Shown in pieces: positions 38,232 to 64,000 of a stretch of 64,000 bases of DNA. A program made the translations under genes and the position numbers. Location: contig JAWLHK010000002.1 in NCBI GenBank assembly GCA_041690355.1, positions 283,082 through 347,081 of the forward strand, written 5' to 3'. The DNA comes from a bacterium (GTDB taxonomy: Bacteria; J088; JAWLBW01). Positions within the stretch are counted from its first letter, which is position 1, and each line of letters begins with the position of its first letter. A model generated the notes under the pieces. The model was not told the origin of the DNA and ran no database searches. It saw only the letters and a list, made by a program, of their open reading frames with translations.

Positions 38232-40645
38232 ACCTTACGTCCTACCTCCTGCGCCAGACGCCTGTCGAGCCGACCCTTCTCGAGCAGATACTCGCGTTCA
38301 CGCAGGACAATCCCCAGGTCATCGCCGGCGCGGGCGTGCTGCTCGTGGTGCTTCTGGTGCTGCGCAAGTTCATCGGCTCCGATGCGGGCCCCAAACCGGG
38401 CAAGCTCCCCCGCAATCCGAAACAGGCCCGCCGGTGGGCCGAGCTGTCGATTCAGGCCAACAAGTTTCGCCAGGCGGGCGACTTCTACCTCATCGCCAAC
38501 GAATACGAAGCGGCTTACAACGCGTTTGCGCGCGCCGCCGCTTACGACGAGGCCGCCGAGGCGGCGCTTGCGCTCGGTGCCAAGGAAAAAGCGGCGATGA
38601 TGCTCGAAAAGGCGAAGAAGTATGTCGCCGCCGCGAAGCTGTATCAGCAGTCGGGACGCTACAACGACGCCGGCGAGGTCTTCGCGCGTGCCGGTAACGA
38701 TACCCTTGCCGCCGAAGCCTTCGAGGCGGCTGGCAACTGGGGCAAGGGGGCCCTGCACTTCGAGCGCGCCCGCAACCACGTCAAGGCGGCCGACCTCTAT
38801 GTGAAGGCGCGGGATTTCAAGAAGGCCGGCGCCCTGTACGAAGCTGCCTACCGCGAGGCGCGGCAGCAGTCGAAGGAGAACCCCGCGCGGACGCGCCAGG
38901 CCGGCGAGTTCGCGCTCAAGGCTGCGGGCTGCTTTGAGAAGATCAAGGAAGTGAAACCGGCCATCGCCGTTCTGAGCGACGCCGGCTTCTTCGAAAAGGC
39001 GGCCGGCCTGCTGCGCTCGACCAACGATCTCGAGGGGGCCGCCGACCTCTACGTCAAGGCCAACCTCCCGCTGCAGGCCGCCGATCTCTACGTGCAGATG
39101 GGCGACCCCGAGCGCGCCGCCCGCCTCAAGGGCGATGTCCTGCGTTCGGAGGGGAACGAGCTGGCCGCCGCCGATAATTACCGGCAGGCCGGTGAGTATC
39201 TGGAAGCGGCCGAAATCTTCCGCCGGCACAACCATTACGCCGAAGCCGCCTCGATGTATCTGCAGGTGGGCGATTACCTGCAGGCAGGCGAAATGTTCCT
39301 GCGCGCCAAGGACCCACGCAAGGCGGCCGAGGCCTGGGAGCGCGCGGGTGACTATCGCCGGGCCGCCGAGGTCTACCAGCGGCTCGGCGACGGCCGCAAG
39401 CAGAGCGAACTGCTCGAGCGCGCCGGCGAGTCGTTCGAAGCCGGGCTGAATTACTACCGTCTGAAGCTCCCCGACGAGGCCGTGCGGGTGCTTTCGTCGA
39501 TTCCCGGCGAGCATCCCTCGTTCCGCAAGGCCTGCAACCTGCTCGGCGACATCTATCGCGAAAAGGGAGACGCGGCGCAAGCCGTCAAGAAGTATCAGCA
39601 GGCGGTCGAGGGGCAGAAGGTCAGTCAGGCCAACCTGCATCCCTATTACAATCTGGCGCGCGTGCTCGAAGAGTCGGGCGACCCGCGCCTCGCCTTCGCC
39701 CTGTTTCGCAAGATTCAGCAGGAAGACAGCCAGTTTCAGGACGTGGCGGCGCGCGTCAACACGCTCAAGTCGCGCGTCGAAGAGGCCGATCGCAAAGAGC
39801 GCGAGAAGACGGCGCCCCCCGATACGAGCACGGCCACGCCCGTGGTCGCGCGCGCCAAGAAGCGTTATACGCTGTTGTCGGAGATCGGCCGCGGCGGCAT
39901 GGGAATCGTCTACAAGGCGCACGATCAGGTGCTCGACCGTGTCGTCGCCTTCAAGGTGCTCCCCTCCGATCTGCGCAACAATGACGTGGCGGTGAAGAAC
40001 TTCCTGCGCGAAGCCAAGGCCGCCGCCGGGCTGAACCACCCGAACATCGTCATCGTCTACGACGCCGGCGAAGAGGGTGACAACTATTATATCGCCATGG
40101 AGTACATCGAGGGGCGTACGCTGCGCGACATCGTCGTCGCCGACGGCAAGATTCCGCTGCCCGGGCTCATGGTCATCACGGCCCAGCTCTGCCGGGCCAT
40201 GGAGTACGCGCACGGCCGCAGCGTGGTTCATCGCGACATCAAGGGCTCGAACATCATGTGGACCGACGCCAAGCTCGTCAAGGTCATGGATTTCGGGCTC
40301 GCCAAGGTCATTCAGGAAGTCGTCAACTTTCAGACCGTGGTCGGCGGCACCCCGCACTACATGGCGCCCGAACAGATCCTGGGCGAAGAAATCGACCGCC
40401 GCGCCGACCTGTATTCGCTGGGGGTCACGCTCTACGAGTGCGCCACGGGCACCGTCCCGTTTCCCAAGGGCGACGTCGGCTACCATCACATCCACACCCC
40501 TGCACCCGACCCGCGCGAGTTCAACAAGGATGTACCCGAGGCCTATGCCAAGCTGCTTCTGAAGTGCCTCGTGAAGGATCCGGCGGCACGCTATCAGAGC
40601 GCCGCCGAAATCTACGAGGACCTCAAGGAAATTCGGGTGCGATAA
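38228..40645 (+). CDS. membrane-anchored Ser/Thr protein kinase with TPR-like helical repeat region
   Basis: 805 aa; N-terminal TM; about 450 aa of Ala-rich repeats; C-terminal kinase domain ([29 protein letters not shown]); GTG start. Confidence 0.85.
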
Positions 40646-43074
40646 TGGACACGCAGGCCGTGCTCGAGCACCTGCAGCGCTTACCGCCCTGGGCCTGGGG
40701 CGCGGCCCTGCTGGGACTGGTGGCGCTGGTCTTCGCCGTGCGCGTTCTGAAGCGCTACGGCCGGCTGCGCCGTTACCCCGGTCTTCAGCCGCGGTTTCGA
40801 TCGGCGGCCGGGGCGCGCGTGCTCGCCGCGGCCGAGGCCTCCGAAAAGCGCGGTGCGTTCGAAGAGGCGGGAGATCTGTTTCTCCAGCTAGAACTCCACG
40901 ACGGCGCGCGCCGCAACTATCATCGCGCCCAGACCGGGTTGAAGCTGGCCGGCTCTTATCTCGCCACCGGGCAGAAGCTCGAGGCCGCCACGTGGTTCGA
41001 ACGTGCGGGGCGAGTCGACGAGGCGCTCGAACTGTACCTCGAAGTGGGCCAGATCGCCCATGCGGCACGTGCGGCGCAGTCGGCCGGTGACTTTCTGCAG
41101 GCGGCCCAGCTCTTCGAGGGGGCGGGCGATTTCGCCGCCGCGGCTCCCCTTTACCGGCGCATTCAGGACATTCCCAAAGCGTTCGCCTGCTATGAGAAAG
41201 CCGGCGAGCAGGGGGCGGCGGCGGCGCTGGGCGTCGAACACGTCGGCCAGATGCTCGCCGGGCTCCGGCAGGGGAAAAAGGCGAGCGCCGCCGACGTGCG
41301 CGAACTCGAGTCGCTCGCCGAGCGCGCGGCGGCGATCCTGGCAGAGTCGGAGAAGGCGAGCGACTGGGAGCAGGGGCTGCAGCTCTATCTCTTCGCGAAG
41401 CGGTGGGCGAGCGCGGGGCACCTTTTCCGCAAACTCGGCAAGCTCGAAAAGGCCGTCGAGCAGTTTCTGCGCGCCGGCGACAAACGCAATGCCGCCGACG
41501 TGCTCGACGAACTCGGCCGCCCCCGCGAGAGCGCGAAGCTCAAAGGCGAAGACTTTCTCGCCCGCGACATGCTGCGCGAGGCGGCCGCGCAGTTCGAGAC
41601 CGCCGAACTCTGGGAGCAGGCCGCCGAAGCGCTCGTCAAACTGGGCGACAACCTGAAGGCCGCCCTTCTGTTTCGCCGCATGAACATGCCGCTGCGCACC
41701 GCAGAGCTGCTGGAAAAGGAAGGGCAGTACGGCGAGGCGGCCGCCGCCTACCGCGAGGCGGGCGACGACGAACGCGCCCTGCACTGCTACGAGCAGTTGA
41801 GCGACTGGGGCGCGTATACGGAACTGCTCGAAGCGAAGGAGCGGTGGTACGAGGCCGGCCTGAATTACCTCAAGCGGGGGCTGAGCGACAAGGCAATCAA
41901 GGCCCTGCAGCGGGTCGACGAGCACGATCCGCGCTACGGGGCCGCGGCCCTCGCGCTCGGCGACCTCTTCGCCGAGAAGGGCATGCATGGCCTCGCGAAA
42001 GAAAAGTACCTGGCCCTCATCGGTGACGAGCGCATCCAGCGCCGGAACATCGAGGCCTATTACAAGCTGGCGCTCGCCTACGAAGCCAATCAGGAGCTCA
42101 ACCAGGCGCTCCAGACGTTCGAGAAGATCCTCGGCCTCGACTTTCACTTCAAGGACGTCGGCCAGCGCATTCACGATCTGAAGGAACGCATCGCCCTGCG
42201 CACCCCGTTCATGACGCCGGCGCAGAGCGGGGGCCAGCCGGTCGATCCCTTCGCCGCCACGCTCATGCAGCCGGCCCAGGCGGCCAAACGCCGGTATGAA
42301 ATCGTCTCTGAACTCGGCCGCGGCGGGATGGGTGTCGTCTACAAGGCGCGCGATACGGTACTCGACCGGGTCGTGGCCCTCAAGGTGCTCCCCCCCATGT
42401 TCCGCCAGAACGAGCTGGCCCTGCGCAACTTCTTTCGCGAAGCCAAGAGCGCGGCGGCACTTCAGCACCCCAATATCGTCACCGTCTACGATACGGGTGA
42501 AGAAGCGGGCAGTCCCTATATTACAATGGAATTCGTAGAGGGGCGCGATCTCAAGCAGATCGTGTCGGAGTCGGGGGCGTTTGCGCTGGGGCCGCTTCTG
42601 CTGGTGTTCGGGCAGATGTGCCAGGCGCTCACCTATGCGCACGAGCGATCCATCGTGCACCGGGATATCAAACCGAGCAACGTGCTGTGGACCAAGGACA
42701 AGCAGGTCAAGGTAACCGACTTCGGCCTCGCCCGCGCCCTGAACCAGGGTGCGAACACCATGACCACGACCGGCGGCACCCCCTACTACATGAGCCCCGA
42801 GCAGACGCTGGGCAAGAACCTCGATCACCGCACCGACATCTACTCGCTGGGGGTCATGATGTTCGAGCTGGCGACGGCGCGCCTGCCGTTCGAGGAGGGG
42901 GACATCGGGTACCACCACGTTCACTCCGAGGCGCCGAACCCGTCGGTGCACCGCAACGACCTGCCCCCGGCCATGAGCCGTATCATCCTGCGCTGCCTGG
43001 CCAAGAAGGCCGACGAGCGCTATGCGACGGCCGCCGACGTTTTTCGCGAGCTGCGCGAGTCCTTCGGCAGCTGA
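40645..43074 (+). CDS. membrane-anchored Ser/Thr protein kinase with TPR-like helical repeat region (paralog)
   Basis: 809 aa from MDTQAVL; same architecture (LGRGGMGVVYKA, HRDIKPSN, DFGLARA); ATG overlaps the upstream stop. Confidence 0.85.
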   Translation: MDTQAVLEHLQRLPPWAWGAALLGLVALVFAVRVLKRYGRLRRYPGLQPRFRSAAGARVLAAAEASEKRGAFEEAGDLFLQLELHDGARRNYHRAQTGLKLAGSYLATGQKLEAATWFERAGRVDEALELYLEVGQIAHAARAAQSAGDFLQAAQLFEGAGDFAAAAPLYRRIQDIPKAFACYEKAGEQGAAAALGVEHVGQMLAGLRQGKKASAADVRELESLAERAAAILAESEKASDWEQGLQLYLFAKRWASAGHLFRKLGKLEKAVEQFLRAGDKRNAADVLDELGRPRESAKLKGEDFLARDMLREAAAQFETAELWEQAAEALVKLGDNLKAALLFRRMNMPLRTAELLEKEGQYGEAAAAYREAGDDERALHCYEQLSDWGAYTELLEAKERWYEAGLNYLKRGLSDKAIKALQRVDEHDPRYGAAALALGDLFAEKGMHGLAKEKYLALIGDERIQRRNIEAYYKLALAYEANQELNQALQTFEKILGLDFHFKDVGQRIHDLKERIALRTPFMTPAQSGGQPVDPFAATLMQPAQAAKRRYEIVSELGRGGMGVVYKARDTVLDRVVALKVLPPMFRQNELALRNFFREAKSAAALQHPNIVTVYDTGEEAGSPYITMEFVEGRDLKQIVSESGAFALGPLLLVFGQMCQALTYAHERSIVHRDIKPSNVLWTKDKQVKVTDFGLARALNQGANTMTTTGGTPYYMSPEQTLGKNLDHRTDIYSLGVMMFELATARLPFEEGDIGYHHVHSEAPNPSVHRNDLPPAMSRIILRCLAKKADERYATAADVFRELRESFGS

Positions 43075-55321: not shown

Positions 55322-55767
55322 CCGTCCGCGTTCCCGTCCGCGTCCTGCCGCACGCGGCCGACCTCCCGCTGCCTGGCTACGCGACGGCTCACGCCGCCGG
55401 ACTCGATCTGCTCGCCGCCGTCGACGCCGACGTCCTGCTGGCTCCGATGCAGCGCGCCGTTATCCCCACCGGGCTGTGCGTGGCGATCCCCGAAGGGTGG
55501 GAGGCGCAGGTGCGCCCCCGGTCGGGGCTTGCCCGCAATCACGGCGTCACCTGCCTGAACACGCCCGGAACGATCGATGCCGATTACCGCGGCGAGATCG
55601 GCGTTCTGCTCGTCAACCTCGGCGCCGAGCCCTTCGCCGTGTCTCGCGGCATGCGCATCGCCCAGCTCGTCGTGTCTCCGGTGGGCCGCATCGAGTGGGA
55701 ACCTGCGACCGAGCTTCCGCCCACGGTGCGCGGCGCGGGCGGCTTCGGCAGTACCGGCGTCGCCTGA
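55318..55767 (+). CDS. dut: dUTP diphosphatase
   Basis: 149 aa with dUTPase motifs ([20 protein letters not shown]). Confidence 0.9.
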
Positions 55768-55837
55768 GGCGCCCACCCGGAAATCTTCTGCCGGCAGGGT
55801 CCTTCAGCAGACGGTCGCCCCGGTTTACAATGGGCCT

Positions 55838-56611
55838 GTGCCCCGCGTCGATCTCCACTCTCATCTCATCCCCGGCGTCGACGACGGCGTGCGCACCCTT
55901 GATGATGCTCTGCGGTGCATCGAGGGGCTCGTCGAGCGTGGATACGATTGCCTCTGCACGACGCCCCACCAGGCCGACCGCTGGCGCCCCGACGCCGCCT
56001 TCCTGACCGCCGCCCTGCGCGGGTTGCGCGAAGAGATCGACCGGCGCGGGTGGCCCGTGCGGCTCGCCCTCGGCGCCGAGAACCATCTCGACGAGGTCTT
56101 TCTGACACGACTCGAGCAGGGGACCCTGCCCACGTACGGCCTCGCCGGCCGCGACGTGCTCGTGGAGTGCCCGGTTTGGTCCCGGCCGCCGTTTCTTGAA
56201 GAAATCCTCTTCCGCCTGCAGACAGGCGGGATACGGCCGGTTCTTGCCCACCCTGAGCGCTATCCGTGGCTGGTGCGCGACAGGGCGCGCGTTGCGGCCC
56301 TCCGGAACGCGGGGTGCCTGTTCCAGGTCGACCTCGGGAGCTTCGCCGGGGCATACGGCAGCGAGGCAAGACAGGCGGCGCGGCGGCTCGTGCGCGAGAA
56401 AGCCGTCGATCTCGTCGCGACCGACCTGCACGGTGCCGGCCGCCTGCCCGCCCTGGTCGACGCCGGGTGGCAGGCGCTGGCCGAACTGGCCGGCCCGGCC
56501 GAGCTGGCGCGGTGGGGATCTGCGACCCCCGGCGAGATCTTCGCGCGTGCCTGGACGGGCGCCTGGGGGCAAGAAATCGCTCACCCCCCCGAACCGTCTG
56601 CCGATATCTAA
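55838..56611 (+). CDS. PHP-domain protein-tyrosine phosphatase (CpsB/YwqE-like)
   Basis: N-terminal VDLHSHLIPGVDDG metal-binding motif; GTG start. Confidence 0.7.
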   Translation: MPRVDLHSHLIPGVDDGVRTLDDALRCIEGLVERGYDCLCTTPHQADRWRPDAAFLTAALRGLREEIDRRGWPVRLALGAENHLDEVFLTRLEQGTLPTYGLAGRDVLVECPVWSRPPFLEEILFRLQTGGIRPVLAHPERYPWLVRDRARVAALRNAGCLFQVDLGSFAGAYGSEARQAARRLVREKAVDLVATDLHGAGRLPALVDAGWQALAELAGPAELARWGSATPGEIFARAWTGAWGQEIAHPPEPSADI

Positions 56612-56662: not shown

Positions 56663-58576
56663 ATGGTCGTTTGGCCTCGCGATGTGGCGTCGCCGATGTC
56701 ACACGGGAATTTCGCCTGGGCGCAGCGCATGAGTCTTGTCGGCAACATTGAGGATCTTCCGCTCACGGACATCCTCCAGATCGTTTCGCTCAGCCGAAAG
56801 TCGGGTGTTCTGGCATTGAAGCGCGAGGGGGCTGAGGCCGCGATCTGCTTTCAGAACGGGCTCGTCGTCGCTGCCTCCATCACCGACTTCCCGCTCGACC
56901 TGCTGGCGTTTCTGCGCCGCAAGGGCCTGCTGACCCCGGCCGACGAAGCCGACGTCCGCCAGCAGGTACAGGACGGCATTCCGGTGGCCGAAGCGCTTGC
57001 AAACTTCGCGGTCCCCGACACCGTCATCGAAGGCTTTTCCCGCGCGGCGATCGAAAAGGTGGTCTACCGTCTGTTCACCTGGCGCGAAGGCTCGTTCACA
57101 TTCGATCTGATGGATGGGGCCGAAGAGCGTTTCCGCGCGAATCCGCTGCATCCGTTTCTCGCCCAGGGGGTGAACCCGCAGTTTCTCGCCATGGAAGGGG
57201 CGCGCCTGCAGGACGAGAGCGACTATTTCACGACGAAAAGCCCCGGCGCTGCGCCTTCGCCTGACCCCGCGCCGGCCCCGGCCGCGAAGCCCGAGCCCCG
57301 TCCCGCGCAGGCGGCCCCGAGCGAGCCTCCGGTCGCGCCTGCGCCGCCTCCCGCTCAGCCTGCGCGCGCCGCCGCCCCCGCGACGGCCCCCGCGACGGCC
57401 TCCGGTGCGGCCTCCAGTGCGGCCCCCCGGCCGTCGGCCGCCGCCGCTCCGGCGCCGGCCCTCAACGACCGGCCGCTCGTCGCCATCGTCGACAACGACG
57501 CCGTCGCGCTCAAGAACATCGAAAACGTGCTCCTGCAGCGCGGCTACGAAGTGGCCGCCTTTGCCCGCGTCGAGACCGTCATCAACGCCGTGCGCGAGCT
57601 CCTGCGCAAGGGGCGGCCGCTCATCGTGCTGGCCGACCTCGTCATGCCCAAGCGCGATGCGAGCGGGATGCTGGGCGGTCTCGAGGTGCTCGAGCTGCTG
57701 CGCGCCGAAGAGCAGGACGTGCCGATCGTCGTGCTGGCCGACATCAACAATGCCGATGCCGAAGCGCGCGCCCGCGAACTGGGGGCCGACGGCTACGTCT
57801 CGAAGCCGGGCCGCAAGTTCTACGTCAAAGAAAAAGAAAACAACACGCCCGAGTTTCTGACCTTCATGGCCGGCCTGGCCGCCGAGATCGAGCGGCTGAC
57901 CGAGAAGGCACGCGGCATTTCGGCGTCTCCGGCCGCCTCGCCGTTCGTCGATCTGAGCACCGAGCTCAAGGGCGAGCTCGAGGCTGCGACCCATGCCGTG
58001 AGCGCCACGGCCCCCGTCATGGTGCCGGGCATCGAAAAATCGCGCGGCCTCGACATGCTCAAGGAGATGGTTCGCGAACTCAACGATCCGCACTTCAACG
58101 CCGACGTCTCGCTGCTTGTGCTCCGTTTCGCCGTCGAGCTCATGGATCGGGCGGTGATCTTCGCCGTGACGCCGCAGGAAGTCATCGGCCTCGGGCAGGC
58201 AGGCATCGACGCCCCCGACGCGACGGCGCGCGTGCGCTCCATGCGGGTGCCCCTCGCCGGGAGCTCGATTTTCTCCGACGTCGTGCGCATGAACGGCGCG
58301 GTGCGCCGCAAACTCGATTCCAGTGAGTGGAACCGGTATATTCTCGACCAGCTCGGCGGCCAGCGCCCCGAAGAATCCTTCGCGGCCCCGATTTTCACGA
58401 GCCGGCGCATGGCCGCCGTCGTCTACGGCGACAATGCGTCGAGCGGGCGCCCCATCGGAGACGTCGATGCCCTCGAAATTTTTCTTTCGCACGCCGGCAT
58501 CGCCATGGAGCGGGCGCTGCTCGAGCGGCGGCTGCGCGACTTGACAGGCAGCCAACGCATCCACTATGCTGATTGA
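56663..58576 (+). CDS. DUF4388 - receiver (REC) - GAF-like multidomain regulator
   Basis: DUF4388-like N-terminus, Pro/Ala-rich linker, REC domain (LADLVMP, YVSKP), GAF-like C-terminus; true start may be ATG 56696 or 56729. Confidence 0.75.
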   Translation: MVVWPRDVASPMSHGNFAWAQRMSLVGNIEDLPLTDILQIVSLSRKSGVLALKREGAEAAICFQNGLVVAASITDFPLDLLAFLRRKGLLTPADEADVRQQVQDGIPVAEALANFAVPDTVIEGFSRAAIEKVVYRLFTWREGSFTFDLMDGAEERFRANPLHPFLAQGVNPQFLAMEGARLQDESDYFTTKSPGAAPSPDPAPAPAAKPEPRPAQAAPSEPPVAPAPPPAQPARAAAPATAPATASGAASSAAPRPSAAAAPAPALNDRPLVAIVDNDAVALKNIENVLLQRGYEVAAFARVETVINAVRELLRKGRPLIVLADLVMPKRDASGMLGGLEVLELLRAEEQDVPIVVLADINNADAEARARELGADGYVSKPGRKFYVKEKENNTPEFLTFMAGLAAEIERLTEKARGISASPAASPFVDLSTELKGELEAATHAVSATAPVMVPGIEKSRGLDMLKEMVRELNDPHFNADVSLLVLRFAVELMDRAVIFAVTPQEVIGLGQAGIDAPDATARVRSMRVPLAGSSIFSDVVRMNGAVRRKLDSSEWNRYILDQLGGQRPEESFAAPIFTSRRMAAVVYGDNASSGRPIGDVDALEIFLSHAGIAMERALLERRLRDLTGSQRIHYAD

Positions 58577-58602
58577 CGTTTTGCCTCCGGAGCCGCTATC
58601 GC

Positions 58603-58986
58603 GTGGGAAAAAAACTCCTGGTGGCCGAGGATTCGGCTACCATGCGACAACTGATCGTCGCCGCCCTCAGTCGGATTCCCGACCTTGAGATCGTCGAGTG
58701 CCAGAGCGGCTTTGAAGCCCTCAAGGCCATCCCACGGGTGCGTTTCGACATGGTGCTCACCGACATCAACATGCCCGACATCAACGGGCTCGAGTTGATC
58801 GGTTTTCTCAAGAGCAACCCCGATACCCGGAACATTCCCATCGTCATCATCACGACCGAGTCGAGCAAGCGTGATCAGGTGAAAGGCCTCGCCCTCGGGG
58901 CCAGCGAGTACCTGATCAAGCCGTTCTCTCCCGAGCGGCTGCAGGAGCTCGTCAGCCGGCACCTCCAGATACAGCTTCCCCAATGA
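58603..58986 (+). CDS. cheY: CheY-like single-domain response regulator
   Basis: KKLLVAEDS, MVLTDINMP (phospho-Asp), YLIKP; GTG start at 58603 preferred over TTG at 58573. Confidence 0.85.
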   Translation: MGKKLLVAEDSATMRQLIVAALSRIPDLEIVECQSGFEALKAIPRVRFDMVLTDINMPDINGLELIGFLKSNPDTRNIPIVIITTESSKRDQVKGLALGASEYLIKPFSPERLQELVSRHLQIQLPQ

Positions 58987-61058
58987 AAGACGACAAGGCC
59001 CTCCAGGAGTTTGTTTCGGAGAGCGAAGAGATCATCGAGGAGATCTTTCAGAACCTCCATGAGATCGAGGGGAGCATCGATCAGGGGCGCTACAACCCCG
59101 AAACCCTGAACGCAATCTTCCGCGGCGCGCACTCCATGAAGGGGCTCGCGGGGATGTTCGGTTTCGAGGGGATCCAGAGCTTCGCCCACCATCTCGAGGA
59201 CCTGCTCGACAAGCTGCGCCTGGGCAAGCTCACGTTCGACAAGCCGATTCTCAACCGGCTGTTTTCCAGCATGGAGTACCTGCGCAGCCTGGTGGCCGAC
59301 CGGGCGCAGGGAAAAGCCGACGACATGGCCGCCATCGACGAGCGCATCCGCGAGCTGCAGGCCATGCTCGCCGGGGGCAAGGGCGGGGCAGAGTCGAACC
59401 CCTTCGAGGGGGTAGCCCTCGATCCTGGCCTGCTCGGCGTGCTGACGGAGTACGAAGAATACCGCCTGAAGACCAACATCGAACAGGGTCATAACCTGTT
59501 CCGCGTGCGGGCGACGTTCGACATCATGAGTTTCGATCAGGAGCTCGACGGCATCACGAAGAAGCTCAAGGGGATGGGGGCCGAGCTCATCACGACCCTC
59601 CCGAGCCCCGAGCCGGCCAAGGAGATGGAGATCAAGTTCGATCTCGTCGCCGGAGGCGATCGGCCGCTGGCCGACCTCGAAGCCGAACTGGCCGCCCCGA
59701 ACGTGACCGTTACCGAAATCGAGCAGGCGAGCAAAAAAAAAAGGCCGTCGCCGGGAGTAGCCGGCACGGTTGAGAGCTTCCTCCAGGCGCAGGCGCCGAG
59801 TGGAACCGTGGTCGACGATGACGACGCCGGCCGCAGAGACGAGGCCACCTCAATCCGCAGCGTTTCGAAAACGGTGCGCGTCGATATCGACAAGCTCGAT
59901 ACGATCATGAACGTCGTGGGCGAGCTCGTTCTCTACTCGTCGCAGATCAACCGCTTCGCCGAAAAACTGCGCCTCGAGCAGGGCAACACGGGCCCCTCGG
60001 CGCAATTCTTCAAGGCCAGCCGCGCCCTCGAACGCAAACTGCGCGAACTGCAGGACGGCGTCATGGATACGCGCATGGTGCCGCTCAAGCAGGTGTTCGA
60101 CAAACTCCAGCGCATCGTGCGCAAGATTGTGCAGGACGTCGGCAAAGAAGCCGAGCTGGTCATTCTGGGCGGCGAGACCGAGCTCGATAAGCTGATCATC
60201 GAAGACCTCGGCGATCCGCTCATGCACATCATCCGCAATTCCGTCGACCACGGGCTCGAAACCCCCGACGAGCGCGAGAAGGCCGGCAAACCGCGCAAGG
60301 GAACGATCCGCATCCACGCCTACCAGCGCGGCAACCACGTCAACCTCGAGGTTGAGGACGACGGCCGCGGCATCGACCGCGAGCGCATCCGCAGGAAGGC
60401 GCGCGAAAAGCGGCTGGTCGACAACGTAGATGCCCTCAAGGACGACGAGGTGCTCAGCCTGATCTTCCTCCCCGGCTTCTCGACGGCCGAGAAGGTCTCT
60501 GAGCTTTCGGGGCGCGGCGTGGGACTCGATGTCGTCAAGGAGAACATCGCGCAGATGCGCGGGCTCATCAACATCGATACCGAACTCGGCAAGGGAACCA
60601 AGTTCACGCTCACCCTGCCGATCACGCTGGCCATCATCCGCGCCCTCATCATCGAGGCCCGCGGACGGCTCTATGCGATTCCGCTCAGTTCGATTCTCAC
60701 CTCGCTCATGATCGAGCCCCGGCAGATACGCACCATCGAGCGGCGCGAGGTCATGGAGTTCCGTCATCAGAATGCGGTGCAGACGCTGCCGCTGCTGCGG
60801 CTCGAGCGCATCTTCGACCTGCGCCGCGACACGGCCGAGGCGGGCGAAAGCCTCTACGTCGTCGTGCTCGAGCTGGCCGATCGCCGCCTGGGGCTGATCG
60901 TCGACCGCCTGCACGGACAGCAGGATATCGTCATCAAGTCGATCAGCGACGTCCTGCGCACGCGCGGCATCGCGGGGGCCACGGATCTGGGGAACCAGCA
61001 GACGATTCTCGTCCTGGACGCCGCGGCCCTGATCGACGAGGCCGCGCGCGGAGTCTGA
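58983..61058 (+). CDS. cheA: chemotaxis histidine kinase CheA
   Basis: Hpt (HSMKG), dimerisation and HATPase regions, C-terminal CheW-like domain; no fused receiver. Confidence 0.95.
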   Translation: MKDDKALQEFVSESEEIIEEIFQNLHEIEGSIDQGRYNPETLNAIFRGAHSMKGLAGMFGFEGIQSFAHHLEDLLDKLRLGKLTFDKPILNRLFSSMEYLRSLVADRAQGKADDMAAIDERIRELQAMLAGGKGGAESNPFEGVALDPGLLGVLTEYEEYRLKTNIEQGHNLFRVRATFDIMSFDQELDGITKKLKGMGAELITTLPSPEPAKEMEIKFDLVAGGDRPLADLEAELAAPNVTVTEIEQASKKKRPSPGVAGTVESFLQAQAPSGTVVDDDDAGRRDEATSIRSVSKTVRVDIDKLDTIMNVVGELVLYSSQINRFAEKLRLEQGNTGPSAQFFKASRALERKLRELQDGVMDTRMVPLKQVFDKLQRIVRKIVQDVGKEAELVILGGETELDKLIIEDLGDPLMHIIRNSVDHGLETPDEREKAGKPRKGTIRIHAYQRGNHVNLEVEDDGRGIDRERIRRKAREKRLVDNVDALKDDEVLSLIFLPGFSTAEKVSELSGRGVGLDVVKENIAQMRGLINIDTELGKGTKFTLTLPITLAIIRALIIEARGRLYAIPLSSILTSLMIEPRQIRTIERREVMEFRHQNAVQTLPLLRLERIFDLRRDTAEAGESLYVVVLELADRRLGLIVDRLHGQQDIVIKSISDVLRTRGIAGATDLGNQQTILVLDAAALIDEAARGV

Positions 61059-61060
61059 TC

Positions 61061-61876
61061 ATGTACGAGGAATTTTTCGGACTCAGCGCCCGCCCGTTTC
61101 AGAAGACCCCCGATCCCGCATTTCTCTATCGCGGACGCAAGCACGCCGAGGCGCTCACGCGCATGATATACGCGGCCGAAGAGCGCGAGCTCATGGTGCT
61201 CACCGGTGAGATCGGCGCCGGCAAGACCACGCTCACGCGCGCCCTCGCCGACGAACTTCCCGAAGACCGGTATCGCATCGTCCTGCTCATCAATCCCCGC
61301 ATCTCGGCGCTGCAGCTGCTTCAGGCCCTGGCCGAGCGGCTCGGGCTCGAGAACGCGCCCCGGCAGCGGGTGCGCCTGCTCGAGGCCGTCCAGGCGCGCC
61401 TTTACGAGCTCGATCAGCAGGGGGTGACGCCTGTGCTGATCATCGACGAAGCCCAGATGCTCCCCGGCAAGGACATCTTCGACGAGCTGCGGCTCATTAC
61501 GAACTACCAGCTCGACGATCGCAATCTGCTGGCCGTTCTTCTCGTCGGTCAGCCCGAACTGAGCAGGCGCCTCGCACACCCGAGCTATCGCGCATTGCAG
61601 CAACGAGTGGGAATCCGGTATCATCTTGAGGCACTGGATGAACAGGAAGTGCGGGAATATGTTGACTTTCGCACGGAAGTTGCCGGGCGCGGCGCGCCGC
61701 TTTTCACCACAGAGGCGGTCGCCGCACTGTTCCGTCTGAGCGGCGGCATACCCCGCGTCATCAACAATCTTGCGGCCAGCGCGTTGCTGAGCGGCTTCGG
61801 CAAGGGCGAAGACCCGGTCGACGCCGCTTCGGTCGAAGACGCGGCCCGCGAGCTTCAGCTGGTGCAGGTGGGGTGA
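61061..61876 (+). CDS. ExeA/GspA-like AAA ATPase
   Basis: FGL..RPF N-terminal motif, Walker A GEIGAGKTT, Walker B LIIDEAQ, GIPRVIN C-terminal motif. Confidence 0.8.
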   Translation: MYEEFFGLSARPFQKTPDPAFLYRGRKHAEALTRMIYAAEERELMVLTGEIGAGKTTLTRALADELPEDRYRIVLLINPRISALQLLQALAERLGLENAPRQRVRLLEAVQARLYELDQQGVTPVLIIDEAQMLPGKDIFDELRLITNYQLDDRNLLAVLLVGQPELSRRLAHPSYRALQQRVGIRYHLEALDEQEVREYVDFRTEVAGRGAPLFTTEAVAALFRLSGGIPRVINNLAASALLSGFGKGEDPVDAASVEDAARELQLVQVG

Positions 61877-61877
61877 G

Positions 61878-62744
61878 GTGGATTTACTCGAGATCCGCAA
61901 GAAAGCGCGCGCGCAGAAGAAAGCCGGGTCGACCAAGGACGATGCCCCCGGGGCGTCTGCGCCTGCCGTCGTCCCGGAGGCAGCTGCTGTTGCCGAAGCG
62001 CCTCCTGCGGCCGCATGGCCGGCCGGGGCCGTGCAGCACGTGCCCGCGCCTGCGGCGACCCCTGCGGCTTCAGACGAACCGGAAGTGCCCGCCTGGACGG
62101 CCGACGAGTTCGAGCATTTCCTGCAGAGCGGACCTTCTGCGCCCCCGGCGGCGGCCTTCGCCGCGCCTGCGTCACAGGCTGTGCCGGGCGGCTATCCCGC
62201 AGGGTCGGCCAGGGGCGACAGCCTGCGCGACTCGCTGCTCAACGCCGACTTTCTCGAACTGGCGACCGAAGAGCTTTACCGCCACACGTACGACGTCGAG
62301 ACGCCCGACACGGCATTCCGGCAGGTGCTGGCCTGTCTGCTCGCCGACGAGGAGTACGGCATCGACATTCACGGCATCCGCGAAATCATCAAGCCGCGCG
62401 ACATCACCGAGGTGCCGCGCGCCCCGCGCTACGTGCTCGGGATCATCACCCTGCGCGGCCGGGTCATCCCGGTGCTCGACCTGCGCGAGCGCCTGGGACT
62501 CAGCGTGTCGCCGTTGGGGCGCCAGAGTAAAATTGTCGTCGTGGCGCACCGGGAGAGCTTCTTCGGGCTGCTCGTCGACGCCGTCATCGACGTCGCCAAG
62601 ATTCCCGAGCCCTCCATCGAGAGCACGAGCGCGGTCATGGTCGGGGTCGACGGCAAGTATCTCGAAGGGATCGGCCGCGTCGGAGATGAAATGATCATCC
62701 TGCTCAACCTCGGCGAAGTTCTGAATATCGAGGGCCAGTCGTGA
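61878..62744 (+). CDS. CheW-domain protein with Pro/Ala-rich N-terminal extension
   Basis: About 140 aa low-complexity extension then CheW domain; GTG start. Confidence 0.8.
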   Translation: MDLLEIRKKARAQKKAGSTKDDAPGASAPAVVPEAAAVAEAPPAAAWPAGAVQHVPAPAATPAASDEPEVPAWTADEFEHFLQSGPSAPPAAAFAAPASQAVPGGYPAGSARGDSLRDSLLNADFLELATEELYRHTYDVETPDTAFRQVLACLLADEEYGIDIHGIREIIKPRDITEVPRAPRYVLGIITLRGRVIPVLDLRERLGLSVSPLGRQSKIVVVAHRESFFGLLVDAVIDVAKIPEPSIESTSAVMVGVDGKYLEGIGRVGDEMIILLNLGEVLNIEGQS

Positions 62745-63268
62745 AGACCGAATACCGTAGCCGGCACGATGAGATTCAGCTTGCGGTGCTCGTGGTCGGG
62801 GGCGAGAAGTTCGCGCTCGACATCATGCGCATCATGGAAATACAGCGGTCGCAGACCATCACGCGCATGCCCAAGGTGCCCGACTTTCTCGAAGGGGTCA
62901 TCAACCTGCGCGGTGCGGTCATTCCGGTCGTCGACATGCGCAAGCGGCTGGAGCTCACCGTCACGCCGACCTCGCGCAAGACGCGCATCGTCATCGCCAA
63001 CGTCGGTGGCAAGATCGTCGGCCTGCTCGTCGACGAGGTCAGCGAAGTCATTCGCGTCGCCCGCTCAGACATCGGTCCGGCGCCCGCCCTGACCCGCGGC
63101 ATCGGATCCGAGTACATCATGGGGGTCGTCAAGCGCAAAGACGAGCTGCTCCTGCTGCTCGATTTCGAACGCATCCTCAGCACCGAAGAACGCGTGAAGA
63201 TCGACGAGATCAAGAAGCGCGCCCGCGAAACGGCGCAGCCGGCGGGAGAGGCGGTGAAGCCGGCATGA
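62741..63268 (+). CDS. cheW: chemotaxis coupling protein CheW
   Basis: 175 aa single CheW domain; GTG start overlapping upstream stop. Confidence 0.9.
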   Translation: MKTEYRSRHDEIQLAVLVVGGEKFALDIMRIMEIQRSQTITRMPKVPDFLEGVINLRGAVIPVVDMRKRLELTVTPTSRKTRIVIANVGGKIVGLLVDEVSEVIRVARSDIGPAPALTRGIGSEYIMGVVKRKDELLLLLDFERILSTEERVKIDEIKKRARETAQPAGEAVKPA

Positions 63269-64000
63269 GCGCGCGCAACTCCAGCATCGCCAGGCAGTTC
63301 ATCACCTTCATTTCGGTCGTCGTGGCCGTTCTGTCGGGCGTGCTCTCGATCGTCTTCTTCTTCAATTCCCGGACGCTGCTGAACGAAGAGCTCGATCGGC
63401 GCGGCCTGCTCATCACGCGGCAGCTCGGCTACGGGGCCGACGTCGCGATCATGAACAACTCGCTGATGTACCTCGACCAGAAAATCGACAATTTTCTCGG
63501 CGACAGCGACATCGCGTTCATCATCTATCGGAACAAGGAAGGGCTCGTCCTGCGCGACTGGTATCAGGAGCAGGACATGCGCGACGAGGTCAACAAGGAC
63601 CCGCAGGCCGACCGGTACCGATTTCGCGGCTACGAGATCCGCCACATCACGCGGCCGGTGACCTCGGTGACGACGACGCTCAGCGCCGATATCTTCGCCG
63701 TCTTCGGTGAAGAAGAAAGCGCCGGTGAGTCGGCCGCCACGTCGACGGTCGAGACGGTAGGCCTGGTCGAAGTCGGCATCAGCACGAAGAACATTCTCGA
63801 GCGCCTGCAGGACATCCTCTACAAGGCCATCGGCATCGCCGTGACGGGCGTGCTCATGGCCATTCTGCTCTCGTATTTCTACATTACCTACACGACGCGT
63901 CCCCTGAAGCGCATGGTGGGTGCGGCGCGCAGCGTGGCCGAGGGCAATCTGGCCGTTTCGATTGACGTCGACTCCACCGACGAGATCGGCGACCTGGCCC
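63265..64000 (+). CDS. methyl-accepting chemotaxis protein, 5' part (continues beyond window end)
   Basis: ATG at 63265 overlaps the cheW stop; TM1, about 170-aa sensor region, TM2, HAMP onset (RPLKRMVGAARSVAEGNLAVSIDVDSTDEIGDLA); absent from the ORF track because no stop is reached. Confidence 0.8.
   Translation, partial: MSARNSSIARQFITFISVVVAVLSGVLSIVFFFNSRTLLNEELDRRGLLITRQLGYGADVAIMNNSLMYLDQKIDNFLGDSDIAFIIYRNKEGLVLRDWYQEQDMRDEVNKDPQADRYRFRGYEIRHITRPVTSVTTTLSADIFAVFGEEESAGESAATSTVETVGLVEVGISTKNILERLQDILYKAIGIAVTGVLMAILLSYFYITYTTRPLKRMVGAARSVAEGNLAVSIDVDSTDEIGDLA

What the first reader, a model, noticed from the sequence alone, without database searches (positions are those of the whole stretch)
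61061..61876. ExeA/GspA-type AAA ATPase embedded between cheA and cheW
The protein has the ExeA-family FGL..RPF N-terminal motif, Walker A and B boxes and the GIPRVIN motif. It starts 3 bp after the cheA stop and ends 2 bp before the next gene. ExeA-like proteins usually act with secretin or pilus systems, so this placement is unexpected.
Basis: partly seen in the sequence, partly recalled or inferred. Interest (0 to 1): 0.6.

Follow-up and report, generated by a model that had tools for sequence, protein, structure and literature searches.

The report
ExeA-type ATPase built into chemosensory operon
The gene is real: a soluble ExeA-family AAA+ ATPase that is a fixed part of one widespread type of chemotaxis-like signalling operon (the Geobacter "Esn"/beta-group type), always paired with a CheW carrying a conserved N-terminal peptide, and its role there has never been worked out.

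Summary
The ORF at 61061-61876 (+) is confirmed. It encodes a 271-aa AAA_22 ATPase with the N-terminal FGL..RPF motif, Walker A and B boxes and GIPRVIN, and sits between cheA and a cheW. Its ATPase module is 41-45% identical to canonical ExeA/GspA proteins, but it lacks their membrane and peptidoglycan-binding parts.

The adjacency is not strain-specific. CheA lies directly upstream in 74 of 76 assessable related loci, and CheW directly downstream in 69 of 70. These loci come from Nitrospirota, Desulfuromonadales/Geobacter, Acidobacteriota and Anaeromyxobacter. The Che-linked ATPases form one clade.

The Geobacter counterpart matches GSU2221, labelled only "ATPase". It lies between esnC (CheA) and esnB (CheW), and Tn-seq gave it the same electrode-growth defect as those two genes.

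New here: the downstream CheW nearly always begins with the peptide M-D-[LI]-[AL]-[KE]-I-R-K-K-A, followed by a variable, low-complexity-looking linker. Searching metagenomes for that peptide alone found the ATPase upstream in 71 of 71 assessable contigs.

The predicted fold is closest to MuB, ORC/Cdc6 and TnsC switch-type AAA+ proteins.

Best reading: an ATP-driven component of the signalling complex that docks on the CheW peptide. The pathway membership is well supported; the mechanism is inferred. I rate it a new variant of a known kind, of moderate interest.

The parts
55577..56611 (+). CpsB/CapC-type PHP protein-tyrosine phosphatase. This is the ORF as listed; the true start is probably near 55850. 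It is context only and is not conserved with the cluster.
   Evidence: The ORF is. It is 62% identical by tblastn to the L001 gene that carries PF19567 CpsB_CapC. It was found upstream of the cluster only in the window and L001.
56663..58576 (+). PATAN (PatA_N/DUF4388) response regulator, the first gene of the Che-like cluster.
   Evidence: Pfam DUF4388 at 6e-21 and Response_reg at 2e-14. A homologue was detected in 51 of 80 related loci.
58573..58986 (+). CheY-like single-domain response regulator.
   Evidence: Pfam Response_reg at 1.3e-25.
58983..61058 (+). CheA histidine kinase (Hpt, dimerisation, HATPase_c and CheW-like P5 domains).
   Evidence: CheA lies directly upstream of the ATPase in 74 of 76 assessable loci.
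61061..61876 (+). The finding: a soluble ExeA-family AAA+ (AAA_22) ATPase of 271 aa.
   Evidence: The AF2 model has pLDDT 92.3. The fold is closest to MuB, ORC/Cdc6 and TnsC. It belongs to the Che-linked clade.
61061..61129 (+). N-terminal family motif MYEEFFGLSARPFQKTPDPAFLY.
   Evidence: F13, T16, P17, P19 and L22 are invariant in A1. P12, F13, P17 and P19 are also at least 90% conserved in long ExeA forms.
61205..61231 (+). Walker A / P-loop, G49-EIGAGKTT-T57.
   Evidence: G49, G52, G54, K55 and T56 are invariant.
61433..61456 (+). Walker B, V125-LIIDEAQ-Q132, including the catalytic-type D129 and E130.
   Evidence: D129, E130 and A131 are invariant.
61490..61525 (+). Clade-specific loop R144-LITNYQLDDRN-N155. 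The Che-clade consensus is RLLTNfQLDDrN; long ExeA forms have RLLTNLETxxxK.
   Evidence: Q150, L151, D152 and N155 are at least 90% conserved in the Che clade and replaced in long ExeA forms by E (0.99), T (0.98), a variable residue and K (0.99) respectively.
61745..61765 (+). GIPRVIN motif. I read it as the AAA+ sensor-2 motif because it starts a lid-domain helix.
   Evidence: G229, P231, R232, I234 and N235 are invariant. The model places a helix at 231-248. The sensor-2 assignment is inferred from AAA+ topology.
61878..62744 (+). CheW paralogue (288 aa): an N-terminal peptide, a linker of about 130 residues that looks Ala/Pro-rich (by eye, not computed), and a CheW domain at residues 149-283.
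   Evidence: Pfam CheW at 2.6e-34. CheW lies directly downstream of the ATPase in 69 of 70 assessable loci.
61878..61913 (+). Conserved N-terminal basic peptide V(M)DLLEIRKKARA of the CheW paralogue; proposed docking or regulatory peptide.
   Evidence: The motif is present in 67 of 72 downstream CheW ORFs, and 3 more carry the variant MGRMxEARKKAR. It occurs once per locus and nowhere else in six-frame translations.
62741..63268 (+). Second CheW (175 aa), without the N-terminal peptide.
   Evidence: Pfam CheW at 1e-37.
63265..64000 (+). 5' part of a methyl-accepting chemotaxis protein gene, cut off by the end of the window.
   Evidence: Translation. The L001 orthologue carries HAMP and MCPsignal domains.

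Best explanation
The ORF encodes the dedicated ATPase subunit of a distinct, widespread class of chemotaxis-like signalling pathway. This is the 'beta-group' cluster of Tran et al. 2008, which includes the Esn genes of Geobacter sulfurreducens; the window gene corresponds to GSU2221.

The protein is the cytoplasmic AAA+ module of the ExeA/GspA family, freed of its membrane and peptidoglycan-binding parts. It is made from the same operon as CheA and a special CheW, with the start codons 2 and 1 bases after the preceding stops.

Proposed mechanism (inferred, not shown): the protein is an initiator-clade, MuB/ORC/TnsC-like AAA+ switch, so it oligomerises when ATP is bound. The acidic ATPase (net charge about -7) binds the invariant basic N-terminal peptide (MD[LI]xxIRKKA) that the downstream CheW carries on a long flexible tether. 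ATP binding and hydrolysis then assemble, remodel or localise the CheA-CheW-receptor complex, or gate its kinase output.

Confidence is layered. That it is a true ExeA-family ATPase: about 0.95. That it is a selected, integral component of this Che pathway: about 0.9. That it acts through the CheW N-terminal peptide on the signalling complex: about 0.4.
For: Identity:
- AAA_22 matches at 1.2e-25.
- Residues 1-265 are 41-45% identical to canonical long ExeA/GspA proteins.
- The catalytic motifs are invariant.
- The AF2 model is confident (pLDDT 92) and shows an AAA+ core plus lid.
- The nearest solved folds are MuB filament 8xvb (Foldseek E=2.5e-12), ORC/Cdc6 and TnsC.

Pathway membership:
- CheA lies directly upstream in 74 of 76 assessable loci and CheW directly downstream in 69 of 70, across four or more phyla.
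- All 78 Che-linked sequences fall in one NJ clade that contains no long ExeA forms.
- Geobacter loci L083 and L084 show the order engA, PATAN-RR, CheY, CheA, ATPase, CheW. This equals the published GSU2225 to GSU2220 order (PMC8242959, PMC5585712).
- The window protein is 49% identical to that Geobacter protein over 267 residues.
- Tn-seq gave GSU2221 a fitness value of -2.1 on electrodes, against -2.4 for CheW and -2.8 for CheA (PMC5585712).

Peptide link:
- The motif is present in 67 (+3 variant) of 72 downstream CheW ORFs and occurs once per locus.
- Metagenome contigs selected only by the peptide-coding pattern carry the ATPase directly upstream in 71 of 71 assessable cases.
- By tblastn, motif and ATPase are present in loci where no PATAN-RR (e.g. 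L004, L057, L072) or no HEAT protein (L004, L073) was detected.
- The Che-clade ATPases are acidic, with median pI 5.6 and charge -6.8. Long-ExeA ATPase domains have pI 7.1.
- A loop that is invariant within each group differs between the Che clade and long ExeA forms.

From prior knowledge, not tested here: MuB and TnsC are regulated by short peptides of their partners MuA and TnsB.
Against: - No physical interaction was tested, and the tools gave no complex prediction.
- The peptide could instead bind another conserved cluster component, the membrane, or DNA.
- The Tn-seq phenotype of GSU2221 could be a polar effect on the downstream esnB.
- The NJ tree has no bootstrap support and is midpoint-rooted.
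- The 80 genome loci are the best-scoring relatives, so they define the clade rather than sample the whole family.
- Locus-tag numbering suggests that Myxococcus xanthus Che8, listed as a beta-group cluster, has no gene between CheA8 (MXAN_4758) and CheW8b (MXAN_4757) (PMC3945109). The pathway type may therefore work without the ATPase.
- Variant loci exist: L043 has no CheW after the ATPase and L058 has no CheA before it.
Confidence: 0.5

Rival explanations
1. Output effector. The ATPase is not part of the signalling complex but the pathway's output device. Controlled by CheA, CheY or the PATAN response regulator, it acts as ExeA, MshM or PEP-CTERM ATPases are thought to act, on an envelope machine such as a secretin, a type IV pilus or polysaccharide export. 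This would explain the matrix and electrode-biofilm phenotypes.
For: - It is 41-45% identical to ExeA/GspA ATPase domains and aligns end to end with the PEP-CTERM-associated ATPase model.
- The nearest out-clade relative examined, L080, sits next to a low-molecular-weight tyrosine phosphatase.
- In the window and L001, a CpsB-type tyrosine phosphatase precedes the cluster.
- Tran et al. report unpublished data that the G. sulfurreducens beta cluster regulates extracellular matrix (PMC2577667).
- Esn mutants fail on electrodes (PMC5585712).
- PATAN response regulators bind the pilus motor in Synechocystis, according to the title and abstract of bioRxiv 10.1101/2021.06.11.447907.
- The ExeA-like protein PA5037 affects pilus number (PMC6321873).
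Against: - The protein has no transmembrane or peptidoglycan-binding domain.
- The ORFs Pfam-scanned in the window and the Pfam-annotated loci L001 and L083 showed no secretin, pilus or exosortase genes. The 80 loci were searched only with cluster proteins.
- CpsB adjacency is limited to the window and L001.
- Its fixed position between CheA and CheW, and its perfect pairing with a CheW-borne peptide, fit a core partner better than a distal effector.
Confidence: 0.25
2. Nucleoid-based positioning. Like its structural relatives MuB and TnsC, the ATPase polymerises on DNA when ATP is bound. The CheW peptide stimulates hydrolysis, so the system positions or segregates chemosensory clusters. This would be functionally analogous to the ParA-like PpfA and ParC systems, but built on an AAA+ protein.
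For: - The best structural and sequence matches among solved structures are the DNA-bound filament formers MuB and TnsC.
- A basic N-terminal peptide on a tether resembles partner peptides that stimulate ParA-, MuB- and TnsC-type ATPases (prior knowledge, not tested).
- ParA-like positioning ATPases are known to be encoded within che operons (prior knowledge).
Against: - The Che-clade proteins are acidic, with median pI 5.6 and net charge about -7. This argues against non-specific DNA binding.
- The cluster in the window and L001 encodes a transmembrane MCP, so the arrays are probably membrane-bound.
- No DNA-binding test was possible.
Confidence: 0.1
3. Passenger gene. The ATPase merely hitch-hikes in the operon and has no role in chemosensory signalling.
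For: No direct functional data exist for any member. The only phenotype, from Tn-seq, may be polar.
Against: - Position, orientation and tight spacing are conserved across Nitrospirota, Desulfuromonadota, Acidobacteriota and Myxococcota, with protein identities down to 41-58%.
- The catalytic residues are invariant.
- A clade-specific loop is conserved.
- The reciprocal association with the CheW peptide is perfect among assessable contigs.
Confidence: 0.03

Closest known systems
GSU2221 ('ATPase') of the Geobacter sulfurreducens Esn / beta-group che cluster 5 (Tran et al. 2008, PMC2577667; Chan et al. 2017, PMC5585712)
   Same: - Same gene position, between CheA (esnC, GSU2222) and a peptide-bearing CheW (esnB, GSU2220).
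- Same cluster content: PATAN-RR, CheY, CheA, ATPase, CheW, CheW, Zn-ribbon RR, HEAT, CheR, CheB, GAF, RR.
- 49% identity over the full length to the Geobacter protein P0375.
- Same NJ clade as the Geobacter-lineage loci, e.g. L022, L042, L074; P0375 itself was not in the tree.
   Different: - The window comes from a different, unclassified high-GC lineage. Its closest public relative is MAG GCA_041687475.1, at 82% identity.
- Its cluster includes an MCP gene and lacks the extra response regulator between the two CheW genes.
- It is preceded by a CpsB-type phosphatase.
- That P0375 equals GSU2221 is inferred from synteny and published locus-tag order, not from a locus-tagged record.
ExeA/GspA of type II secretion (Aeromonas ExeA; E. 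coli GspA)
   Same: - ATPase module with the N-terminal ..GL..PF.. motif, Walker A, DEAQ Walker B and GxPRxIN.
- 41-45% identity to long ExeA-type proteins that carry GspA_C39-like and PG_binding_1 domains.
   Different: - No transmembrane segment, C39-like domain or peptidoglycan-binding domain.
- No gspB/exeB or secretin gene nearby.
- Acidic rather than neutral.
- Different invariant loop: QLDDxN against ETxxxK.
- Only 27% identity over 142 aa to the divergent E. coli K-12 GspA.
XrtA/PEP-CTERM system-associated ATPase (NCBIfam TIGR03015)
   Same: A short, soluble ExeA-like ATPase of about 270 aa. The model aligns over positions 1-267 of 269 at E=2.8e-69.
   Different: - It scores 233.5 bits against a 324.5 cut-off.
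- No exosortase or PEP-CTERM polysaccharide genes are nearby.
- It is embedded in a che operon instead.
MuB / TnsC / ORC-Cdc6 switch-type AAA+ ATPases
   Same: - Closest solved structures: Foldseek E from 2.5e-12 to 3e-9, TM-scores 0.6-0.7.
- The profile search of PDB sequences puts MuB on top at 2.5e-8.
- AAA+ core plus lid domain.
   Different: - 13-24% identity only.
- No transposition or replication context.
- Acidic, and no evidence of DNA binding.
ParA-like array-positioning ATPases encoded in che operons (Rhodobacter PpfA, Vibrio ParC)
   Same: An accessory ATPase encoded inside a chemosensory operon that might act on array assembly or placement. This is an analogy from prior knowledge.
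   Different: A different fold and family: AAA+ AAA_22, not a ParA/MinD deviant-Walker-A protein. Pfam gave no ParA/CbiA hit.

Membership tests
ExeA/GspA family (COG3267), ATPase module | AAA_22-type P-loop domain with the N-terminal ..FGL..PF.. motif, Walker A GxxGxGKT, Walker B DEAQ and the C-terminal GxPRxIN motif; clear full-length similarity to bona fide members. | tested here: met
   AAA_22 at 1.2e-25. The motifs are invariant. Residues 1-265 are 41-45% identical to proteins with AAA_22 + GspA_C39-like + PG_binding_1.
ExeA/GspA as a secretin-assembly factor | Transmembrane segment plus a periplasmic C39-like and/or peptidoglycan-binding domain. | tested here: not met
   The protein is 271 aa and only AAA-type domains were found. 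E. coli GspA and the long relatives do have PF21327 and PF01471.
ExeA/GspA as a secretin-assembly factor | Encoded with gspB/exeB and near type II secretion or pilus secretin genes. | tested here: not met
   The window neighbours are che genes. Pfam scans of other window genes found housekeeping functions only. The neighbours detected in the related loci are che genes; those loci were searched only with cluster proteins.
ExeA/GspA as a secretin-assembly factor | Required for secretin multimerisation. | not testable with these tools
   This needs genetics and biochemistry.
XrtA/PEP-CTERM system-associated ATPase (TIGR03015) | Score at or above the curated cut-off of 324.5 bits. | tested here: not met
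   233.5 bits, aligned end to end.
XrtA/PEP-CTERM system-associated ATPase (TIGR03015) | Located in an exosortase/PEP-CTERM polysaccharide locus. | tested here: not met
   The genes Pfam-scanned in the window and the related loci L001 and L083 showed no such genes.
Beta-group / Esn-type che cluster ATPase (GSU2221 orthologue group) | Encoded directly between cheA and a cheW in a cluster with PATAN-RR, CheY, HEAT protein, CheR and CheB. | tested here: met
   Window layout. L001 shows the continuation of the cluster. The same order is seen in Geobacter L083 and L084 and in 74 of 76 and 69 of 70 assessable loci.
Beta-group / Esn-type che cluster ATPase (GSU2221 orthologue group) | Falls in the same sequence clade as the Geobacter proteins, separate from other ExeA-like proteins. 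| tested here: met
   The NJ clade holds 78 Che-linked sequences, including the Geobacter-lineage loci, 5 short representatives and L058, and no long forms. There is no bootstrap support. The window protein is 49% identical to P0375, which was not in the tree.
Beta-group / Esn-type che cluster ATPase (GSU2221 orthologue group) | Downstream CheW carries the N-terminal MD[LI]xxIRKKA peptide. This feature is defined in this study. | tested here: met
   The window CheW starts VDLLEIRKKARA.
Beta-group / Esn-type che cluster ATPase (GSU2221 orthologue group) | Needed for the pathway's biological output, i.e. electrode growth or extracellular matrix. | not testable with these tools
   The only data are Tn-seq for GSU2221, at -2.1 and possibly polar (PMC5585712).
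Initiator-clade / MuB-TnsC-like AAA+ | AAA+ alpha-beta-alpha core plus helical lid, with closest structural similarity to MuB, ORC/Cdc6 and TnsC. | tested here: met
   AF2 pLDDT 92.3. Foldseek top hits are 8xvb, 7jgr, 1w5s, 7ufi and 7m99.
Initiator-clade / MuB-TnsC-like AAA+ | ATP-dependent oligomer or filament formation on DNA. | not testable with these tools
   The net negative charge argues weakly against non-specific DNA binding.
ParA/MinD-type chemosensory array positioning ATPase (PpfA/ParC) | ParA/MinD fold with a deviant Walker A. | tested here: not met
   Pfam and NCBIfam gave no ParA/CbiA/MinD match, and the fold is AAA+.
Wuichet-Zhulin chemosensory class (F1-F17, ACF, Tfp) | Class-specific CheA/CheW/CheB/CheR profile matches. 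| not tested
   The class HMMs are not available here. The PATAN-RR plus CheY pair at the operon start resembles cyanobacterial Tax/Tfp systems, but that is only a lead.

The most novel reading that the evidence does not exclude
The ExeA-type AAA+ protein and the tethered N-terminal CheW peptide form a previously unrecognised, energy-consuming module of a chemosensory core complex. In this reading, an ATP-driven switch docks on CheW and assembles, remodels or gates the CheA-CheW-receptor array. That would add a new kind of core component to a major class of bacterial chemosensory systems found in Geobacter, Anaeromyxobacter, Nitrospirota and Acidobacteriota.
Probability: 0.35. Interest if true: 0.75.

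Novelty: new variant of a known kind. Interest (0 to 1): 0.55.

Why it matters
Chemosensory arrays are normally described as self-assembling lattices of receptor, CheA and CheW that need no dedicated ATPase. Here an ExeA-family AAA+ ATPase is a fixed part of one widespread pathway class. That class includes the Geobacter 'electrode sensing network', which is required for growth on electrodes.

The gene has only ever been listed as 'ATPase'. Two results here give a concrete, cheap experimental handle: the conserved pairing of the ATPase with a peptide-bearing CheW, and the acidic ATPase facing a basic peptide. These suggest peptide mutants, Walker mutants and binding assays in G. sulfurreducens.

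The result also shows that the ExeA ATPase module can work apart from its peptidoglycan-binding half. This bears on how ExeA/GspA, MshM and PEP-CTERM ATPases work, which is itself poorly understood.

Tried and rejected
- **Exact-sequence contig look-ups.** Look-ups of the window protein and its 100%-identical database entry P0001 found nothing. The cluster look-up gave no names or accessions. The source organism therefore stays unidentified. The nearest public genome is MAG GCA_041687475.1.
- **Literature.** Searches for ExeA with CheA, CheW, chemotaxis or chemosensory returned only irrelevant papers. The supplements of Tran 2008 do not mention GSU2221.
- **E. coli K-12 GspA as a reference.** It proved too divergent to be useful, at 27% identity over 142 aa. 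Long ExeA-type representatives were used instead.
- **AFDB fold search.** The library was unavailable.
- **CpsB phosphatase link to polysaccharide export.** I considered that the upstream CpsB-type tyrosine phosphatase ties the cluster to polysaccharide export. I rejected it as a general feature because it is present only in the window and L001.
- **MuB-like nucleoid binding.** I considered this as the main mechanism and down-weighted it because the clade is acidic.
- **Complex prediction.** I considered an AF2 run on a CheW-peptide/ATPase fusion. I did not run it, because paired alignments from fetched loci are not accepted and the tool returns no contact or PAE information.
- **Covariation.** Covariation between the peptide variant (MGRMxEARKKAR in L069, L077, L078) and the ATPase gave only two co-varying positions (A33, T57) from what is probably a single evolutionary event. 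This is too weak to use.
Full report
**Observation**

The window carries an ORF from ATG 61061 to the TGA at 61874-61876 on the + strand, encoding 271 aa. The preceding gene ends with TGA at 61056-61058, two bases before the ATG. The next gene starts at GTG 61878, one base after the stop. Codon-position GC (0.75/0.40/0.78) fits the genome's coding pattern; the 360-aa ORF on the opposite strand is a shadow ORF.

They coincide with invariant or near-invariant columns in an alignment of 31 homologues. Pfam gives AAA_22 at 1.2e-25. NCBIfam's XrtA/PEP-CTERM-associated ATPase model TIGR03015 aligns end to end but scores 233.5 bits against a cut-off of 324.5.

The upstream gene is a complete CheA with Hpt, dimerisation, HATPase_c and P5 domains. 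The two downstream genes are CheW proteins. Further upstream lie a PATAN(DUF4388) response regulator and a CheY. After the second CheW, a transmembrane MCP gene starts at 63265 and runs off the window.

**Is it an ExeA/GspA-type protein?**

An exhaustive profile-free search of 1.84 billion cluster representatives found 29,721 relatives at E<=0.001. The ten or so best are short proteins of 265-287 aa at 47-52% identity. Below them, at 40-45% identity over residues 1-265, most hits are proteins of 530-690 aa. Of seven long, single-ATPase-domain hits scanned, five carry AAA_22 followed by PG_binding_1, two of them also GspA_C39-like, which is the canonical ExeA/GspA architecture. E. coli K-12 GspA has the same architecture but is a divergent member, only 27% identical over 142 aa.

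The window protein is therefore a genuine member of the ExeA family at the level of the ATPase module. It lacks the membrane-spanning and periplasmic half that lets ExeA bind peptidoglycan and help the secretin assemble (that function is as summarised in PMC6321873).

Comparing 78 Che-linked sequences with 114 long forms gives three results:
- The N-terminal motif, P-loop, DEAQ, G163-Q164, Q181-R182, R204 and GxPRxxN are shared.
- A loop between helix 137-146 and strand 158-163 is invariant within each group but differs between them. It reads RLLTNfQLDDrN in the Che group and RLLTNLETxxxK in long ExeA forms.
- The Che group is acidic (median pI 5.6, net charge about -7), while long-form ATPase domains are near neutral (pI 7.1).

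**Structure**

AlphaFold2 with the 31-sequence alignment gives a confident model (mean pLDDT 92.3, pTM 0.85). It shows a five-stranded AAA+ core and a helical lid.

Foldseek against the PDB ranks the MuB-DNA filament first (8xvb, E=2.5e-12). ORC/Cdc6 proteins, TnsC and RuvB follow. A profile search of PDB sequences also puts MuB first at 2.5e-8, and also lists TnsC (4.4e-4). No ExeA ATPase domain appears among solved structures.

These relatives are switch-type AAA+ proteins that oligomerise on ATP binding rather than unfold substrates. I assign Q164 as sensor 1, R170 or R182 as a candidate arginine finger, and R232 as sensor 2. These assignments are inferred from AAA+ topology and are not shown.

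**Is the adjacency conserved?**

A relative at 82% identity (MAG GCA_041687475.1, locus L001) shows the whole cluster. Its order is CpsB-type phosphatase, PATAN-RR, CheY, CheA, ATPase, CheW, CheW, MCP, Zn-ribbon RR, HEAT-repeat protein, CheR, CheB, GAF protein and RR.

A scan of one genome per species (GTDB) returned 553 confirmed relatives, of which the 80 best were kept. By record title they comprise:
- 21 Nitrospirota or Thermodesulfovibrionales;
- 21 Desulfuromonadales or Geobacteraceae, including the isolates Malonomonas rubra, Geomonas edaphica and Oryzomonas japonica;
- 14 Acidobacteriota;
- 6 Anaeromyxobacter or Myxococcales, including A. oryzae;
- 6 labelled 'Deltaproteobacteria';
- 9 unclassified;
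- 3 others.

I mapped the cluster's proteins onto these loci by tblastn. CheA lies immediately upstream of the ATPase in 74 of 76 loci with enough upstream sequence. A CheW lies immediately downstream in 69 of 70. The median distance from the end of the CheA match to the ATPase start is 26 bases.

There are three exceptions:
- L058 has PATAN-RR and CheY, then the ATPase, with no CheA.
- L043 has RNase III after the ATPase.
- L080 has no che genes and a low-molecular-weight tyrosine phosphatase upstream.

In a neighbour-joining tree of 225 ATPase domains, all 78 Che-linked sequences fall in one clade of 84 tips. That clade holds no long ExeA form, and L080 falls outside it (no bootstrap, midpoint root).

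**Link to the literature**

Tran et al. 2008 described 'beta-group' che clusters (G. sulfurreducens cluster 5). They are conserved in delta-proteobacteria, have unknown function, and carry additional unexplained genes. The authors mention unpublished hints of a role in extracellular matrix (PMC2577667).

Chan et al. 2017 found by Tn-seq that three adjacent genes are needed for growth on electrodes: GSU2220 (esnB, CheW, -2.4), GSU2221 ('ATPase', -2.1) and GSU2222 (esnC, CheA, -2.8). They deleted and studied only esnB and esnC (PMC5585712). PMC8242959 gives GSU2224 as a response regulator flanked by GSU2223 (CheY), GSU2222 (CheA) and EngA (GSU2225).

A homologue named 'MULTISPECIES: ExeA family protein [Geobacter]' (P0375) lies in two complete Geobacter chromosomes. 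The surrounding order is era, engA, PATAN-RR, CheY, CheA, AAA_22 ATPase, CheW, RR, CheW, Zn-ribbon RR, HEAT, CheR, CheB, GAF, RR. This matches the published tag order exactly. I therefore infer that P0375 is GSU2221 or its near-identical orthologue. The window protein is 49% identical to it over 267 residues.

I found no paper that discusses the ATPase beyond that table entry.

**A new feature: the CheW peptide**

The CheW directly downstream of the ATPase has an N-terminal extension. Across the loci, its first residues are M-D-[LI]-[AL]-[KE]-I-R-K-K-A-[KR]. The R is invariant and the second K is present in 64 of 67 cases. After the peptide comes a variable linker that looks low-complexity by eye (composition not computed), and then the CheW domain.

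The counts are as follows:
- The motif is present in 67 of 72 downstream CheW ORFs.
- Three more loci (L069, L077, L078) carry the variant MGRMxEARK[KR]AR.
- The other two are probable start-site miscalls.
- A strict version of the motif occurs exactly once per locus, in 58 loci, and nowhere else in the six-frame translations. The second CheW does not carry it.
- The Geobacter EsnB-type CheW starts MMDIAEIRRKAQ.
- The window CheW starts V(M)DLLEIRKKARA.

As a reciprocal test, I searched metagenome contigs with a degenerate 29-base pattern encoding only this peptide. My estimate of chance matches is below one for the whole collection. In the 80 loci returned:
- An ExeA-like ATPase ends just upstream in 70 by tblastn, and in one more (L113) by inspection.
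- Seven have no upstream sequence.
- Two have only 165-216 non-coding bases upstream and are indeterminate.
- A CheW domain follows in frame wherever there is room (62 loci).

By tblastn, the peptide and the ATPase are both present in loci where no PATAN-RR was detected (e.g. L004, L057, L072) or no HEAT protein was detected (L004, L073). The caveat is that tblastn has limited sensitivity for those proteins.

**Mechanism**

Shown by the data:
- The ATPase active-site residues are intact and conserved.
- The predicted fold is AAA+ of the switch type.
- The gene is a selected, clade-specific component of this che operon type.
- It co-occurs essentially one-to-one with a CheW bearing a basic peptide on a flexible tether.
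- The Che-clade ATPase has become acidic and has its own invariant surface loop.

Inferred: the ATPase binds that peptide and uses an ATP-dependent oligomeric switch to assemble, remodel, localise or gate the CheA-CheW-receptor complex. The analogy with MuA-MuB and TnsB-TnsC, where short partner peptides control AAA+ assembly and hydrolysis, comes from prior knowledge and was not tested. I put about 0.9 on 'integral component of this pathway' and about 0.4 on the peptide-docking, array-acting mechanism.

Rivals:
- **Output effector acting on envelope or polysaccharide machinery (0.25).** This is supported by ExeA and PEP-CTERM homology, the matrix and electrode phenotypes, and the tyrosine phosphatases near the window cluster and near L080. 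It is weakened by the missing envelope domains, by the absence of secretion, pilus or polysaccharide genes among the neighbours examined, and by the gene's core position in the operon.
- **MuB-like nucleoid-based positioning system (0.1).** This is weakened by the acidic charge and by the membrane MCP in the cluster.
- **Passenger gene (0.03).**

**Caveats**
- The GSU2221 Tn-seq phenotype may be polar on esnB.
- M. xanthus Che8, named as a beta-group cluster, appears from consecutive locus tags (CheA8 MXAN_4758, CheW8b MXAN_4757; PMC3945109) to lack the ATPase. The pathway type may tolerate its loss; I could not fetch those sequences to check the peptide.
- The source organism of the window is not identified.
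- The rest of the window is housekeeping: BipA, H+-PPase, CoaBC, RseP-type protease, RuvB, a TPR Ser/Thr kinase and PNPase by Pfam, and an M16 peptidase and dUTPase from the orthologous L001 genes. It offers no obvious target machinery.

**Verdict**

The observation and the family assignment are correct. The placement is real, ancient and functionally meaningful. It is not categorically new, because the same gene sits unremarked in the Geobacter Esn cluster and NCBI annotates it as 'ExeA family protein'. However, no role has been proposed for it, and the tight pairing with a peptide-bearing CheW appears unreported in the literature searched here. I rate it a new variant of a known kind, with interest 0.55.

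Noticed in passing
window 61878-61913; L001-L081 and L083-L165 downstream of the ATPase: The CheW encoded right after the ATPase starts with a near-invariant basic peptide, MD[LI][AL][KE]IRKKA[KR]. A variable linker of tens to over 200 residues, low-complexity by eye, follows it. The second CheW of the cluster lacks the peptide. The papers searched and read here do not mention it.
   Followed up: yes
window 55577-56611 (true start probably near 55850): A CpsB/CapC-type PHP protein-tyrosine phosphatase sits directly upstream of the che cluster, here and in the 82%-identical relative L001, but in none of the other 79 genome loci. The nearest non-Che ExeA-like gene examined (L080:3785-4579) is preceded by a low-molecular-weight tyrosine phosphatase (L080:3333-3794). 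This may be a coincidence or a hint of a link to tyrosine-kinase-controlled polysaccharide export.
   Followed up: partly
L078:3730-8906 (same MAG as L001, GCA_041687475.1): The relative's genome has a second che cluster with its own ExeA-like ATPase, 44% identical to the window protein. Its CheW carries the variant peptide MGRLSDARKKARKK and its CheA matches differently. The same subtype occurs in the Acidobacteriota loci L069 and L077. One genome can therefore hold two such systems.
   Followed up: partly
Literature: M. xanthus MXAN_4751-4759 (PMC3945109): The M. xanthus Che8 cluster, listed as beta-group by Tran 2008, has CheA8 (4758) and CheW8b (4757) on consecutive locus tags. It apparently lacks the ATPase. 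CheA8 is also unusually long, at 862 aa. This could be a natural loss useful as a control.
   Followed up: no
L058:1838-5032 and L043:7576-11489: Two rearranged variants exist. In L058 (Thermoanaerobaculia) the ATPase follows PATAN-RR and CheY with no CheA between. In L043 (Acidobacteriota) CheY, CheA and the ATPase are followed by RNase III and transglutaminase-like genes instead of CheW.
   Followed up: partly
P0124, P0130, P0131 (representatives): Some relatives of 600-690 aa carry two tandem ExeA-type AAA_22 domains. This suggests that the module works as an oligomer and can be duplicated within one chain.
   Followed up: no
L086:1-216: The non-coding stretch upstream of the peptide-bearing cheW in this metagenome contig contains a short tandem repeat. 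In translation it reads as the repeated string LITDN**. The ATPase, if present, lies beyond the contig end.
   Followed up: no
window 40258-43074: A 938-aa protein with TPR repeats and a C-terminal Ser/Thr protein kinase domain. It is unrelated to the finding.
   Followed up: no
L083:18704-20804: In Geobacter, the cluster is followed directly by a large multihaem (cytochrome c7-type repeat) protein gene. This is noteworthy given the electrode-growth phenotype of the Esn genes.
   Followed up: no
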